A stretch of DNA of 64,000 nt from Eledone cirrhosa (Eukaryota). Below the pieces are notes generated by a model. That model was not told the DNA's origin. It did not search any database and worked only from the letters and a program-made list of their open reading frames with translations. This document shows positions 11,990 to 56,155 of the stretch, one piece after another. The stretch lies in contig OZ024741.1 of assembly GCA_964016885.1 (NCBI GenBank), positions 163,928,001-163,992,000 on the forward strand, written 5' to 3'. Position 1 is the stretch's first letter; every line of letters starts with the position of its first letter. The position numbers and the translations under genes were made by a program.

Positions 11990-12505
11990 ATAATTGGAAA
12001 TCAGTAAAATCGAATCTCTAGCGGTTTGCAAGTAAATTCGGCCTACTTATATGAAATGATGAGTTAGCAAAGCACTCGATAAGATAGGACCTCAGAGTAA
12101 TAACATACGTTTAAATAGCTTGACAAATCGAACATTGCGGTAGGCGAAACTAACACACAATACATACCAAAGTAACGATAGAACTAATCAGGTTGAGAAA
12201 AGTACACCTGGACAAATCAAACGAACAATCGTTTAAAGTGTTTCTTTGAATCCGAAATCAAATATCAGACTTACGTGAATGGCAAGCTCATGGTATTGGT
12301 GATCGAACGGAGGATTCAGTTTATCAACAGGTTTTCGTTCTGCTTAGGACCGGAGTGATAAATTATATGTTGCTGCTCGATATGGCTGCTAATCACATCT
12401 ATAGTTATCACGTGTTAATTCCGGCAAGGGAAAAAAAACATGGTTTTAGGCGGGTCATTCAAAATGGTAGCGAAAGGAAATATTTCAATTTCCGCTAATC
12501 ATCAG
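11990..12505 (-). mobile_element. Diverged relative of the 55361-56155 element
   Basis: Shares CCTGTTGAYRA...GAAA module, the GCAAGGGA box preceded by CACGTG, and a GACC.AGAG.AATAA.CATA.GTT segment with the reverse complement of 55.4-55.9 kb. Confidence 0.55.
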
Positions 12506-12827
12506 AGAGAGAGAAAGAGATTATATTATTTCTTAAACTCATATACGGCTGTGTAAATAATTACACTTGCATGTATGTAGAATATACGTTTGTTGGCTTC
12601 GAACAGCACTTCAATTTCAACTATAGCAACAACCTAGAGACCCGACATTTCGGTCGTGAGTTGCAGGTCTTAAATCTGTCTAAGCACCCACTTGAAAGAA
12701 TATGTCTGGATAGATCCCGAGGGTAACAGTATCATCGATTCGATGGAACACTGGAGAAGATATATATATGTATGCATGCATGTATATATGCGTGTGTGTG
12801 TGTATGAATGTATGTATGTATGTATGT

Positions 12828-13855
12828 CGGGTTACTCTTGAGTGCTACTGGTAACATGTAACCCAGTACAACCTGTCGCATGGTCGGGTCGTCGGCGACT
12901 AAACTGGCAACCCCACCAAGTTTACTTGGTGAGGAGGGTAATATTTGGACACCCTGCAGGACAAAAAACAAAACCTGACAAAGGGCGGAAGAACTCATAA
13001 GAGTCAACGGCCATCCAAAAGTGTGTAAATATGTATATACACATGTACCGCGCGGTGAAACGACTGGGAGTGAAGGACCCCTAGCCTTTTTCAGGGCATT
13101 CTTCTAGGAGAAGGCAACTCAGGAAACTGGGATAACTCCGATAATTTGCGGCTCAGTAGTTACCGATGATGTTGATATTTTCTTCTTTTCGGGTTATAGC
13201 TACTGTCGCTCAGAGAGTGGAACTGGCTCAGTGCACACTTTCCTCACTTTAAAAAATATCTTCACGCAGAGGCATTGCACGATAGAATTAAGTAATAATT
13301 ATATCGTGCAATGACCATACTCCATAACGAGGGGGCAGCCATCATGTATGTATGTGTGCTACTGGTAACATGTAACAAAGTACAACCTTATGGTTGGGTC
13401 GTCGGTGACTAAACCGGCAACCCCACCAAGCTAGCTTGGTGAGGAAGGTAATATTTGGACACCCTGCGGGATGAAATACATGACAAAGGGCGGAGGAATG
13501 TAACAGAGTCAACGGCCATCCAAATAGTACTTTTTTATTTTTATTTCACCTGGGAAGGAAAGGCCCCCAGTTGTTGTCACAACACCTTTCTAAGAGAGGG
13601 AAACTCTGAAAAAAACCTGCGGCTTCGGAAGCATCCGATGACCAGTTCTCCTTTTCGGGTAGTGTTTACGATGCCCAGAGAGTGGGGTTGGTCGAGTGCA
13701 AGGCCTTTCTCCACTTAAAAAACCTTCAAAGCACAGGCATTGCTTGTTCGGGATATGTTACAGGTTTGTGTGACTCTCCGTAGCCTAAAAGTGCACCAAA
13801 CTCTATAATCTGACAAGTGATTGCAATACTCTTAACAGAGTTTTCAGCCATCATG
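12828..13855 (+). mobile_element. Two tandem diverged copies (~515 bp) of a non-coding retroposon-like unit
   Basis: TGCTACTGGTAACATGTAAC...GGCAACCCCACCAAG...GGACACCCTGC...AGAGTCAACGGCCATCCAAA occurs at ~12843 and ~13357; both units end CAGCCATCATGTATGT. Confidence 0.75.
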
Positions 13856-14514
13856 TATGTGTGTGTATGTATTTGTGTGTATGTGTGTGTGTATGTGTGT
13901 GTGTGTGTGTGTGTGTGTGTGTGTGTGTGTGTGTATTTGTGTGGGGGGGGGGTGCATGTGTGTGTGTGTGTGTGTGTGTGAATGTTATTCTGGTATTATC
14001 ATTTCATAAATTTCCACCAATCGAGAAAGAGGTGGTTTGTAATATAGAAAAAAATGTCTTTCATTGGAATTTAGAGAACATCAACTAATCAAATACTCAT
14101 GTATGTCCGTATGTATGTTGTGTGTGTAGGAATGGTTCCTATTGCATGTGTGGATCCGTATATTTTGAATTTTGTGTGTACATATGCATATGTTTCTGTA
14201 TCTATACATGTGTATATGAAGTTATTACTTTCTGAATTTCTGAAATGTTTTACATATGTTTACAGTCCCATTAATTGACTGTACTTACGACTTCCTAATT
14301 AGCCGTGCTCTTTCTGGTTTGGTGAAACACAGCTTCTCCAGATTTCTACTGAGGCAGTTAGTAACTTATCTAAGTGCCTCAATGATCACAAGTACATGTC
14401 AAAAGTTATCGTCAGGGTGGAGTATCAGCAGATTCTTCATTAGTTCTGTATAAATATTTTCCTTTTAGTTAATCTATAGCATTGAATTAACATCTTCTGG
14501 ACAACTAATTTACA

Positions 14515-14621
14515 TACCATATTTCCCGGCGCCGAAGACGCTTCGTCCTCGAGGACGCATGGTTGATTTTTGAGACTTATTTTAGGAAAAAAGTAGCGTC
14601 TTCGACGCCGGAAATACGGTT
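14515..14621. mobile_element. Tc1/pogo-type MITE
   Basis: Imperfect ~27-bp TIRs TACCATATTTCCCGGCGCCGAAGACGCT / AGCGTCTTCGACGCCGGAAATACGGT. Confidence 0.7.
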
Positions 14622-15495
14622 TATTATATTTTTCTAACTTCTTTTTTATTTTCCGTGATACAACATACACAGTGCTACGTCTTAAACAGTAGCATATATT
14701 CCTTACTTTGCGCTGTTTTTTTCCCTTTGATTACTTTACCGGTTACCGTCATTTGACTGTAGCCATCCTAGGACACATTAATCTATGGTTTTAATCCGAT
14801 ATATCGACTCTGCTTCTAGTTTCAGTTTGTTTGGTCGGATGAGCACTCGGGACTCACCAACATCATTTTTCTCCCGTGAGAATCATGGATGTACCACACC
14901 ATATAGATGAGTATTGTTGCAATTGTCTTTAGACGCTGAACCTCAGCAATGAGGGTGGGAATAGATTAAACAAAAGTTGTTCCAGTCACGTACTTATTTG
15001 GTCAATCTTTGTTTACATTTTTGGCTCATTTATCATTGGACATTAAGGGGCACAGTTCGATTACCATCGTACACCGGTATATACAAACATAATCACACAC
15101 ACATAAACAAAAACCCCACCCCCACATAGACATGTACACACACACACACACACAGACACACACACACACACACATGTATATATGAATATATATATATATA
15201 TAAAAGAAGGTATAAACCAGACCGCGACGCATAGCGGTTTCTGCTTGTATATAGCAAGCCTTTCTCAAGGGTATACCTTCCTTTATACTCTCTCTGCTTT
15301 TTCCCATACGTAGAGTACTACCCTGTTTTGTGCTCTCCCCGGTTTCGACATTGCAGACTTTCATACATACAAACCCACACACACATATATATATATATAT
15401 ATATATATATATATATATATATATATATATATATATATATATATATATATAGAGAGAGAGAGAGAGAGAGAGAGAGAGAGAGAGAGAGAGAGAGA

Positions 15496-54305: not shown

Positions 54306-54385
54306 CTCCCTGATGAAGAAAGGATTCTCCATGGTCTCCATTTGACGACTATGTATATTCCCTTTCAGAAACTAATTAGTTGGAG
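54306..54385 (+). ncRNA. Type I hammerhead ribozyme
   Basis: CTCC-CTGATGA-aGAAAGG...CCTTTCa-GAAA-CTAATTAG-TT-GGAG; covaries with 32107-32186; both are followed by AGTAAGTAAGTTAATT. Confidence 0.9.
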
Positions 54386-54535
54386 TGAAATTTAAGTAAG
54401 TAAGTTAATTACTATAATTTTCTTATTTTACGTCTTTTATATATATATATATATATATATATATATATATATATATATATATATATATATATATATACAT
54501 ACATACATACACACACACATATATATATATATATA

Positions 54536-55228
54536 ATCATAAAACATGTCTATAGAATCACAAGATAAAATATATACTATTTCCTCTCCCAATTAGCATA
54601 ATTAACTATATAAAAAATAGAATAGACCAGGCTATAAGAATGAGGCTTCTATGAAGGAATCTCCGACAAATAACCAAAACTAGCGCTTCGCGTCGGCCGT
54701 AGTGGAATATTTATCGAATATTTCGACAGCGTAATCGCCTAGATACAGTCAACTAAGCAGAATTAGGTTTAAAATAAACTAGGAGAAAATAGAATACATT
54801 TAAATACCTCTACCATGGTTTCGTCCGTGTTTTGAGTTTTCCAATAATTATGTAATAATTATATAAACTCGAGCGCCGGATTCTTCAGGAAACTCGCTCA
54901 TATCTAGACATTAAATTTTCCAAAACGATCGCGCCAAGAATTCATTTCAAAATGGCTAAAAATCGTGACGTAGTCGTGGTCAAGTTGGAAGGGGTGTGGT
55001 AGTTGCTTACGACTGGTGGCATTTTTGCTAGAAAGCACAGCACAATACAGCCAAATTTTTATCTCAACCTAGTGGGAGATTATTACATATAAAAGTTTAC
55101 ATATATATATATACATACACATACATATACGTGTTTTGCAACCGGTCACTTTGTGGCTCAATGAAAAATTAATAAATTAAACAATCTGAGCTATATATCA
55201 TAAAACATGTCTATAGAATCACAAGATA
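54536..55228 (-). mobile_element. Retrozyme-like element, permutation B
   Basis: ATCATAAAACATGTCTATAGAATCACAAGATA at both ends (period 661); collinear with 15496-16291 after circular permutation. Confidence 0.88.
54807..54892 (-). ncRNA. Type I hammerhead ribozyme
   Basis: Minus strand TTTC-CTGAAGA-aTCCG...CGGAc-GAAA-CCATGG-TA-GAGG. Confidence 0.85.
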
Positions 55229-55360
55229 TATATATATATATATATATATATATATATATATATATATATATATATATATGTATATATATATATATATATA
55301 TATATATATATATATATATATATATATATATATATATATATATATATATATATATATATA

Positions 55361-56155
55361 TTCTTTCGTTTGACCTACTTAGCTTGCTTCGTATTTTTGG
55401 CTTATGAGGCTGATGGCTACTTGACCGCCATTCTCAGTTTGTTTGGTCTCTATAACCTATGTTTATTGCTCTGGTCTTTTTTAGTCCATTGAGCGCTTGC
55501 CGCATATCTCGGAAATTCGATCTCGCTGAAATTATATTTGTGTTAATCTCCCAGGCCTAGCAATTAACCAGTTAATTCTATTAGATAATTCTATTGACTG
55601 ATTAATTACTTAAGTTTATTTTTAAAACAACCCGGTCGAGAGCTTAATTCGATTTGTGCAGTTTTTGCAAATCTTGCATTAATTTTTACACATACTGAAT
55701 TCATCCGCCAAAAAACTGGGGTTACCTCCCTTGCAGGGTAATACACGTGGGGTTATCACTATAACACATTACTACTGCTGGGATCCCGCTCGCTGGCTGA
55801 GAACAAAATACCTGTTGACGAAGTGGCAGCCTTGTTCGATCATTATACCAAAAGCTTAATATGGAAGCAGGCAGTATAATTGATTTACGATTCGCAGAAA
55901 CCCTTTACTGGATTATACCATCAATTCCAGGGGTCCAGGTAAATTCTTTCGTTTGACCTGTTTAGCTTGCTTCGTTTTTTTTTTTGCTTAGGTGGCTGAA
56001 GGCTTCTTGACTGCTATTCTCAGTTTGTTTGGCCTCTATAACCTATTTTTATTATTCTGGTCTTTTTTTAGTCCATTGAGCGCTTGCCGCATATCTCGGA
56101 AATTGCGTTTCGCTTTGTTGTTGACCACTGCCGAAATTCAATCTCACTGAAATTA
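55361..56155 (+). mobile_element. ~583-bp unit with ~175-210-bp terminal direct repeat
   Basis: 55361-55535 repeated at 55944-56155; GTTACCTCCCTT box at 55721-55732; variant hammerhead-like core at 55811-55913; flanked by (TA)n. Confidence 0.75.

What the first reader, a model, noticed from the sequence alone, without database searches (positions are those of the whole stretch)
12223..55920. Three elements share a non-canonical hammerhead-like core
Seen: 12223-12340 (-) CCTGTTGATAA-acTGAATCC...GGATTCAaa-GAAA-C..G-AT; 32764-32883 (-) CTCGTTGATAA-aGTAACTCC...GGATTTACa-GAAA-C..G-AT; 55811-55913 (+) CCTGTTGACGA-aGTGG...TCGCa-GAAA-C..G-AT. All have GTTGAYRA instead of CTGANGA, a long paired insert, GAAAC, and GAT instead of NUH, and all lie downstream of the TCCCTT box. 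Two sit in terminally redundant ~600-bp units. Shared deviations in diverged copies argue against independent decay. Inference: a variant hammerhead or another conserved RNA motif replacing it.
Basis: inference. Interest (0 to 1): 0.7.

Follow-up and report, generated by a model that had tools for sequence, protein, structure and literature searches.

The report
U3-core hammerheads in mobile 600-base repeats
The three sites are hammerhead-type RNA motifs, predicted to cut themselves at an ordinary GUC site, inside related 600-base non-coding repeats that have over 1,600 copies in this animal genome and were likely pasted into TA microsatellites by Penelope-type jumping-gene enzymes; one of their two core variants is already published, the other (a U-G wobble) was not found in the papers searched.

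Summary
The motifs are real, but partly misread. Each is a type I hammerhead fold with long stems II (75-76 nt) and III (27-33 nt). The real deviation is the 3:8 core pair: U3-A8 (published, active in vitro) or U3·G8. A genome pattern finds 1,656 copies (9 in the control), half of each kind; C3 revertants have not spread. The motifs sit in three homologous families of non-coding 606-621-bp units. Their 3' ends are fixed against (TA)n, their 5' ends vary, and arrays reach over three units: non-LTR retrozymes, likely moved by Penelope-like enzymes. 5' ends pile up just after the GUC (30 of 79, against 4 of 49 just before it), also in the U3·G8 family. This is indirect evidence of cutting in vivo. 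No RNA data, no cleavage assay and no identified partner element. The scan has noted U3-A8 and oversized-hammerhead retrozymes before, on other DNA of this genome and in other genomes. Verdict: new variant of a known kind, modest interest.

The parts
11988..12504 (-). Element 1: 517-bp copy (0.83 of a 621-bp unit), 5'-truncated, 3' end 223 nt after the predicted cut, joined to (TA)n
   Evidence: L031/L091 mapped on a cut-to-cut monomer
12206..12332 (-). Type I hammerhead 1: stem I 12332-12328 / 12210-12206; core U3-A8 12327-12321; stem II 12320-12245; GAAA 12244-12241; stem III 12240-12214; GUC 12213-12211
12425..12431 (-). TCCCTTG box, followed by CACGTG; role unknown (promoter or protein-binding site are inferences)
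32500..33196 (-). Element 2: 697-bp copy (1.15 of a 606-bp unit), 3' end about 245 nt after the predicted cut, joined to (TA)n
32743..32875 (-). Type I hammerhead 2: stem I 32875-32871 / 32747-32743; core U3-A8 32870-32864; stem II 32863-32788; GAAA 32787-32784; stem III 32783-32751; GUC 32750-32748. The unconstrained minimum-energy fold is the hammerhead itself (z -3.3)
32934..32940 (-). TCCCTTG box, followed by CATGTG
55357..56157 (+). Element 3: about 801-bp copy (1.35 of a ~600-620-bp unit) between (TA)n tracts; its 5' end lies 5-9 nt after the cut site of the preceding unit, its 3' end 219 nt after the cut
55809..55941 (+). Type I hammerhead 3: stem I 55809-55814 / 55936-55941; core U3·G8 55815-55821; stem II 55822-55896; GAAA 55897-55900; stem III 55901-55932; GUC 55933-55935
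55727..55733 (+). TCCCTTG box, followed by CACGTG

Best explanation
These are type I hammerhead-fold motifs with a U3-A8 or U3·G8 core pair, predicted to self-cleave after GUC, carried by a family of non-coding ~600-bp tandem-unit repeats (non-LTR retrozymes) that are likely copied into (TA)n microsatellites by a Penelope-like reverse transcriptase-endonuclease. Shown: the fold potential, the core letters, the copy numbers, the fixed 3' ends at a short TA-rich word fused to (TA)n, the variable 5' ends, the multi-unit copies, and the pile-up of 5' ends just after GUC. Inferred cycle: (1) a multi-unit copy is transcribed; (2) the hammerhead, able to fold as a monomer because stem III is long, cuts part of the RNA at GUC, giving linear units and possibly circles; (3) a Penelope-type enzyme nicks (TA)n DNA and starts reverse transcription inside the RNA, 219-248 nt downstream of the cut site; (4) copying either runs off the cut 5' end (short ~210-245-bp copies and 1.35-unit copies) or reads on through uncut or circular RNA, which gives terminal redundancy and arrays.
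For: Fold: the constrained hammerhead costs 0.2, 0.0 and 0.6 kcal/mol over the best fold. In 23 of 30 loci chosen by box + core only, the best partner of the stem I 5' strand lies right behind a GTC. Across 10 subfamily clusters pair I.2 is T-A in 5 and C-G in 5, and III.3 is C-G in 6 and A-T in 4. Core: U16.1 in 31/31, 38/38, 35/36 copies and C17 in 28/31, 38/38, 35/36. Position 8 is a purine in 1,656 pattern hits (822 G) and a pyrimidine in 26; it switches A/G at least 5-6 times on a tree of 43 rows. Ends, in 141 distinct insertions from 180 loci: 3' end at one position in 41/44, 40/45 and 31/52; TA repeat at the 3' flank in 130 of 138. In loci found with a query that lacks the ribozyme, 30 of 79 5' ends fall at +1..+30 and 4 of 49 at -29..0 (11/28, 6/24, 13/27 per family; background 0.04-0.08 per 30 nt). 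The excess repeats one unit further up: 12 of 32 in 30 nt, against 0.09-0.20 per 50-nt bin elsewhere. Longest ATG frame 43-76 aa. A young Penelope-type family with many intact 785-aa frames exists in the genome, and its ends show the same joint to (TA)n at fixed points after its hammerhead (6 ends seen). Literature: U3-A8 natural and active (PMC3088659); U3-A8 in Penelope elements (PMC4209133); internal start of reverse transcription and AT-rich targets (PMC11167929).
Against: No cleavage assay and no RNA evidence. The 5' pile-up could also come from a transcription start or from a reverse-transcriptase stall at the 3' edge of the structure. Ends mostly lie at +5..+27, only one exactly at +1. 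About 60% of copies (49 of 82) read through the cut site. Element 3's fold is no more stable than shuffles (z -0.3) and element 1's is marginal (z -1.8). Covarying pairs are few, come from about three lineages, and were collected with a pattern that already asks for GTC; pair III.4 is broken in 4 of 10 clusters and the first stem II pair in 2 of 10. A ~15-copy subfamily with a C3·A8 mismatch has also spread, so an intact 3:8 pair is not strictly needed for copying. Rfam gives no hammerhead match at any of the three sites. No autonomous element sharing sequence with these repeats was found. In one Penelope element, ribozyme cutting was not needed for insertion in vitro (PMC11167929), and 8 of 9 tested frog retrozymes did not cut (10.64898/2026.07.22.740005).
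Confidence: 0.8

Rival explanations
1. The motif is a hammerhead by descent but no longer cuts. It is kept as a structure or a protein-binding site, and the 5'-end pile-up marks a transcription start (driven by the TCCCTTG + CAYGTG box) or a stall of the reverse transcriptase.
For: 49 of 82 copies read through the site. A C3·A8 subfamily spread. The box with its CAYGTG 7-9 nt later is as conserved as the core. Published Penelope hammerheads cut poorly or need protein.
Against: All catalytic positions (G5, A6, A9, G12-A14, A15.1-U16.1, C17) stay canonical across monomers only 50-57% alike. Position 8 toggles only between bases that can pair with U3. The pile-up has a sharp edge at the predicted cut, and other long hairpins of the unit give no such excess.
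Confidence: 0.13
2. One reading: a new catalytic core or a different conserved motif, with GAU as the functional triplet and a short stem III.
For: A GAT lies 9-11 nt after GAAAC in all three window copies and in 7 of 10 clusters.
Against: GAT is absent in 3 of 10 clusters, it lies in or beside a stem III hairpin, and no stem I partner follows it. The partner follows GTC. Only 4 5' ends fall in -22..0, against 42 in +1..+27.
Confidence: 0.03
3. The units are only cut-down ends (pseudo-LTR stubs) of an autonomous Penelope element, or are moved by a different LINE-type enzyme, and are not an independently cycling retrozyme.
For: Short copies look like 5'-truncated Penelope ends. No partner was identified, so the enzyme is inferred from the insertion signature alone.
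Against: Upstream of the unit lies another unit, not coding sequence: 20 insertions pass a second cut site and arrays exceed three units. No Penelope frame continued directly into an element in 260 loci (nearby fragments were read as separate insertions, not checked one by one). LINE-type copying normally starts at the RNA's 3' end (recalled), not at a fixed internal point.
Confidence: 0.04

Closest known systems
Metazoan non-LTR retrozymes (Cervera and de la Pena 2020, PMC7229834: passages and section 14 read; Li, Clavereau and Pollet, bioRxiv 10.64898/2026.07.22.740005: parts 1-3 of 5 read)
   Same: Non-coding, low-GC (35-39%) tandem units with one type I hammerhead each; dispersed monomers and multimers; Penelope-like elements in the same genome; no LTR retrotransposon frame.
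   Different: Units of 606-621 bp against 170-400 nt in the 2020 paper (within the 51-972 bp range of the preprint). U3 core. Stems II and III much longer than the usual 4 bp and 1-2 bp. RNA circles not tested here.
U3-A8 hammerheads of Cercyon Penelope-like elements in Schistosoma mansoni (Cervera and de la Pena 2014, PMC4209133: parts 1-2 of 4 read) and natural U3-A8 variants (Perreault et al. 2011, PMC3088659: section 8 and passages read)
   Same: The same U3-A8 swap of the C3-G8 core pair; over a thousand genomic copies; short 4-5-bp stem I; extra unpaired base after A9.
   Different: Those are minimal motifs without a stable stem III, thought to need dimers. These have a 27-33-nt stem III, and half the copies carry U3·G8, which these texts do not mention.
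Fungal and protist Penelope hammerheads with a large helix III (PMC4209133)
   Same: Type I fold with a long stem III and no recognisable loop I/II contact; one of them cut as a monomer in vitro.
   Different: Those belong to coding elements of fungi and protists; the text read reports no U3 core for them.
Penelope/Poseidon element PAc of the green anole (Frangieh et al. 2024, PMC11167929: parts 1-2 of 4 read)
   Same: Fixed internal start of reverse transcription downstream of the hammerhead; AT-rich targets; tandem copies.
   Different: PAc is coding and has a C3-G8 core. It shows two start sites and a tail; these families show mainly one 3' end and almost no inverted second arm.

Membership tests
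Type I hammerhead ribozyme | Three stems around the core, with stem I formed by the two ends | tested here: met
   Constrained fold within 0-0.6 kcal/mol of the optimum in all three; both-sided changes at pairs I.2 and III.3 across clusters (few independent events).
Type I hammerhead ribozyme | U4 G5 A6 N7, A9, G12 A13 A14, A15.1-U16.1 pair, H17 | tested here: met
   Majority state in all three families; for example U16.1 in 104 of 105 and C17 in 101 of 105 copies.
Type I hammerhead ribozyme | Base pair between core positions 3 and 8 (C-G, or the published U-A) | tested here: inconclusive
   U-A in about 834 and U·G in 822 of 1,656 hits. U-A is an accepted active variant. U·G can pair as a wobble, but no activity data were found.
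Type I hammerhead ribozyme | Self-cleavage 3' of position 17 | not testable with these tools
   Indirect only: 5' ends of copies pile up at +1..+30.
Type I hammerhead ribozyme | Match to an Rfam hammerhead model | tested here: not met
   No hammerhead match at E up to 10 in any of the three 321-bp stretches. The long stems and U3 core are a likely reason (inference).
Type I hammerhead ribozyme | Tertiary contact between loops I and II | not tested
   No such contact was looked for systematically; stem I is 5-6 bp and open-ended.
Metazoan non-LTR retrozyme | Short tandem units, each with a type I hammerhead | tested here: met
   Cut-to-cut units of 621, 606 and 607-624 bp; arrays over three units.
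Metazoan non-LTR retrozyme | Non-coding, low GC | tested here: met
   Longest ATG frame 43-76 aa; GC 35-39%.
Metazoan non-LTR retrozyme | Dispersed, high-copy, signs of retrotransposition | tested here: met
   1,656 pattern hits; fixed 3' and variable 5' ends in (TA)n.
Metazoan non-LTR retrozyme | Expressed as circular RNA | not testable with these tools
   No RNA holder listed.
Metazoan non-LTR retrozyme | Related to, or moved by, a Penelope-like element | tested here: inconclusive
   Same insertion signature as a young Penelope-type family of this genome, but no shared sequence with it.

The most novel reading that the evidence does not exclude
This retrozyme lineage is selected for a leaky ribozyme: it keeps U3 and toggles between U-A and U·G so that only part of the RNA is cut, leaving enough uncut or circular template for more-than-unit copying. 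U3·G8 would then be a natural, working hammerhead core not yet described, and the 5'-end pile-up would be a genomic record of how often the ribozyme cuts in the germ line.
Probability: 0.2. Interest if true: 0.6.

Novelty: new variant of a known kind. Interest (0 to 1): 0.36.

Why it matters
Whether Penelope-associated hammerheads really cut in vivo is open: one study found cutting dispensable in vitro and saw no RNA ends at the site (PMC11167929). Here the ends of genomic copies mark the predicted cut in three families, which makes the question testable. Standard hammerhead descriptors and Rfam miss these long-stemmed U3 motifs, so retrozyme counts in animals are likely too low. A working U3·G8 core would slightly widen the known catalytic consensus. 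The overall system, however, is a known kind, and U3-A8 is in print.

Tried and rejected
GAU as the cut site: rejected. Reversion of the family to CUGANGA: rejected. Twister and hairpin ribozyme look-alikes were considered from recalled consensus words and dropped: the look-alike words are not shared by the three families, and Rfam gave no such match (the whole-window scan, listed 150 of 274 matches, nearly all microRNA-type models on microsatellites). The box as a splice acceptor: the AG is present only in element 3. RNA-editing scars as the source of the A8/G8 switch: no A>G excess on the RNA strand (52 A>G vs 99 T>C singletons, p 0.21). TA-rich microhomology as the cause of the pile-up: +1..+30 is not richer in TA than the rest of the unit, though it likely explains the ends at +5. 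Two-armed insertion as in other families of this genome: only 2 of 141 insertions have an inverted piece on the 5' side. A shared hairpin at the 3' end: single folds give hairpins, but the alignment of 8 ends gave no consensus structure. Within-array against between-array identity as a test for circular templates: inconclusive, muddied by truncated units. RNA: no RNA holder listed; contigs of two runs of unrecorded kind were laid and tell nothing on expression. Pfam and PDB gave no match to the window's Penelope-type frame, so that label rests on recalled motifs (YRDD, C-terminal GIY-YIG-like). Przybilski and Hammann 2007 and Martick and Scott 2006 were not held; the first is known to me only as cited in PMC3088659.
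Full report
1. Observation. The three quoted motifs are present. Each reads: 5-6 nt, TTGAYRA, 75-76 nt, GAAA, 27-33 nt, GTC, then a strand complementary to the first 5-6 nt.

2. Fold. With the core held unpaired, the three sequences fold as type I hammerheads at -29.2, -41.7 and -28.6 kcal/mol, against unconstrained optima of -29.4, -41.7 and -29.2. For element 2 the optimum is the hammerhead. Stability against 200 dinucleotide shuffles is strong for element 2 (z -3.3), marginal for element 1 (-1.8) and absent for element 3 (-0.3). 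In 30 loci picked by box + core alone, the best partner of the stem I 5' strand lies directly behind a GTC in 23. In 4 others it overlaps the GTC region by one alternative register, and 3 do not fit. Among 10 clusters with at least two distinct copies, pair I.2 is T-A in 5 and C-G in 5, I.3 is C-G or T·G, I.5 is A-T or G·T, and III.3 is C-G in 6 and A-T in 4. III.4 is broken in 4 and the first stem II pair in 2. These clusters fall into about three lineages and were collected with a pattern that asks for GTC, so this is support, not a significance test. GAT is present in 7 of the 10 clusters and absent in 3. Rfam has no hammerhead match at the three sites.

3. The core. Numbered as a hammerhead, the only deviation is at positions 3 and 8: U3-A8 in elements 1 and 2, U3·G8 in element 3. 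The pattern with U3 and a purine at 8 has 1,656 genome matches (control 9), 822 of them with G8. With a pyrimidine at 8 there are 26 (control 7). With any other base at 3 there are 77 (control 72); by eye these include 4 scattered C3-G8 copies and about 15 near-identical C3·A8 copies. Among copies of the three families U3 holds in 30/30, 34/34 and 32/34; position 8 is A29:G1:T1, A21:G13 and G31:A3:T1. On a tree of 43 representative rows (from 210 copies, positions 3 and 8 left out) well-supported branches force at least 5-6 changes between A8 and G8; some are single-copy mutations. So the family does not revert to CUGANGA, and position 8 moves only between partners of U3. Natural U3-A8 cores are published and such pairs are active in vitro (PMC3088659 section 8); about 1,300 occur in Schistosoma with Penelope-like elements (PMC4209133). 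Searches for C3U, U3-G8 or wobble with hammerhead found nothing on a natural U3·G8; the library lacks most subscription papers, and I did not open supplements, which may bear on this.

4. The elements. Each site belongs to a young family (1,438-2,240 first-look candidates; best 40 copies 88-100% alike). Cut-to-cut units are 621, 606 and 607-624 bp, align end to end at 50-57%, have 35-39% GC and no ATG frame over 76 aa. 180 loci gave 141 distinct insertions. Their 3' ends fall at one position in 41 of 44, 40 of 45 and 31 of 52, 219-248 nt after the predicted cut, at a short TA-rich word that runs into (TA)n; a TA repeat flanks the 3' end in 130 of 138 and the 5' end in 109 of 138. 5' ends vary, and 20 insertions pass a second cut site. 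An inverted second arm is rare (2 of 141 on the 5' side).

5. Evidence on cutting. I searched with the part downstream of the ribozyme only (from about +41), so that copies need not hold the ribozyme. Of 79 copies at risk, 30 end at +1..+30 (11/28, 6/24, 13/27), against 4 of 49 in the 30 nt before the cut and a background of 0.04-0.08 per 30 nt. One unit further up the excess repeats: 12 of 32 in 30 nt, against 0.09-0.20 per 50-nt bin (12 of 70 ends, p 0.008). This second round argues against a plain bias for short copies. The U3·G8 family shows the pile-up as clearly as the U3-A8 one. A cut at GAU would put ends from about -20 onward; only 4 lie in -22..0, against 42 in +1..+27. The simplest reading is run-off of the reverse transcriptase at a self-cleaved 5' end with loss of a few bases. 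A transcription start or a stall at the structure cannot be excluded. 49 of 82 copies read through, so templates include uncut multimers or circles.

6. The enzyme. A fixed internal start and AT-rich targets are what a Penelope protein does in vitro (PMC11167929); (TA)n targeting and head-to-tail non-autonomous copies are described for Penelope-like clades (PMC8557442 passages). The window holds a Penelope-type element (frames at 57597-57965 and 57943-59943) from a young family with many intact 785-aa frames. Its ends join (TA)n at fixed points 45 and 163 nt after its own hammerhead (6 ends in 30 loci). It shares no significant sequence with the three repeats, and none of its 30 loci holds the box or the U3 core. 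The partner is therefore inferred by signature and unidentified.

7. The box. GGTTAYY-TCCCTTGC followed 7-9 nt later by CAYGTG lies 190-220 nt before the cut in all lineages. It was not seen upstream of the window's canonical hammerheads. Its role is unexplained; a promoter is my first guess.

8. Comparison and verdict. It works like, and on the testable features is, a metazoan non-LTR retrozyme (PMC7229834; preprint) with a type I hammerhead of the U3 kind. Searches for octopus or cephalopod with hammerhead, Penelope or retrozyme gave no description of such a family. The scan has noted U3-A8 and oversized-hammerhead retrozymes before in this and other genomes; no note matched this sequence. 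What is left as new is the pairing of two long stems with a U3 core, the wide use of U3·G8, and the end-mapping evidence for cutting. Selection for U3 over C3 is not shown: the lack of a spreading C3-G8 revertant could be chance on a tree this size. New variant of a known kind; interest 0.36.

Noticed in passing
window, e.g. 15662-15595 (-), 30188 (-)/30660 (+), 32181 (-), 33316 and 33525 (-), 41187 (-), 53796 (+), 54310 (+), 54888 (-), 56570 (-), 57314 (+), 60797 (+): A descriptor scan found 14 canonical CUGANGA type I hammerhead folds of several other families in 64 kb, some in mirror-image pairs.
   Followed up: no
window 56363-60951: Penelope-type element with hammerheads in three terminal repeats, one inverted; its frame is split near 57950 here, while many genome copies have an intact 785-aa frame at 97-100% identity, so the family is very young.
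   Followed up: partly
L215, L221, L222, L227: A subfamily of about 15 near-identical copies has a C3·A8 mismatch in the core yet has spread; a natural control for whether cutting is needed.
   Followed up: partly
window 12425, 32934, 55727 and about 1,000 genome sites: Conserved box GGTTAYY-TCCCTTGC with CAYGTG 7-9 nt later, upstream of the hammerhead; function unexplained.
   Followed up: partly
window 56130, 33141, 32536: A short GCC-RA-TTC-AT-like word lies 15-30 nt before the fixed 3' end in all lineages and may mark the start of reverse transcription; no consensus fold was obtained.
   Followed up: partly
window 33250-33550 (-): A 68-bp piece of element 2's family is fused to, and duplicated with, a different short hammerhead element, suggesting template switching between two RNA families or a local duplication.
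   Followed up: no
window 5323-6602 (-) and 20864-21319 (-): Broken fragments of other Penelope-type reverse transcriptase and endonuclease frames (labels from recalled motifs; no Pfam match).
   Followed up: no
window 7454-7723, 9500-10040, 24180-25050, 41520-41630, 44470-44630, 46260-46480, 50730-50840, 62035-62175: An abundant short interspersed repeat family, more than ten copies in the window.
   Followed up: no
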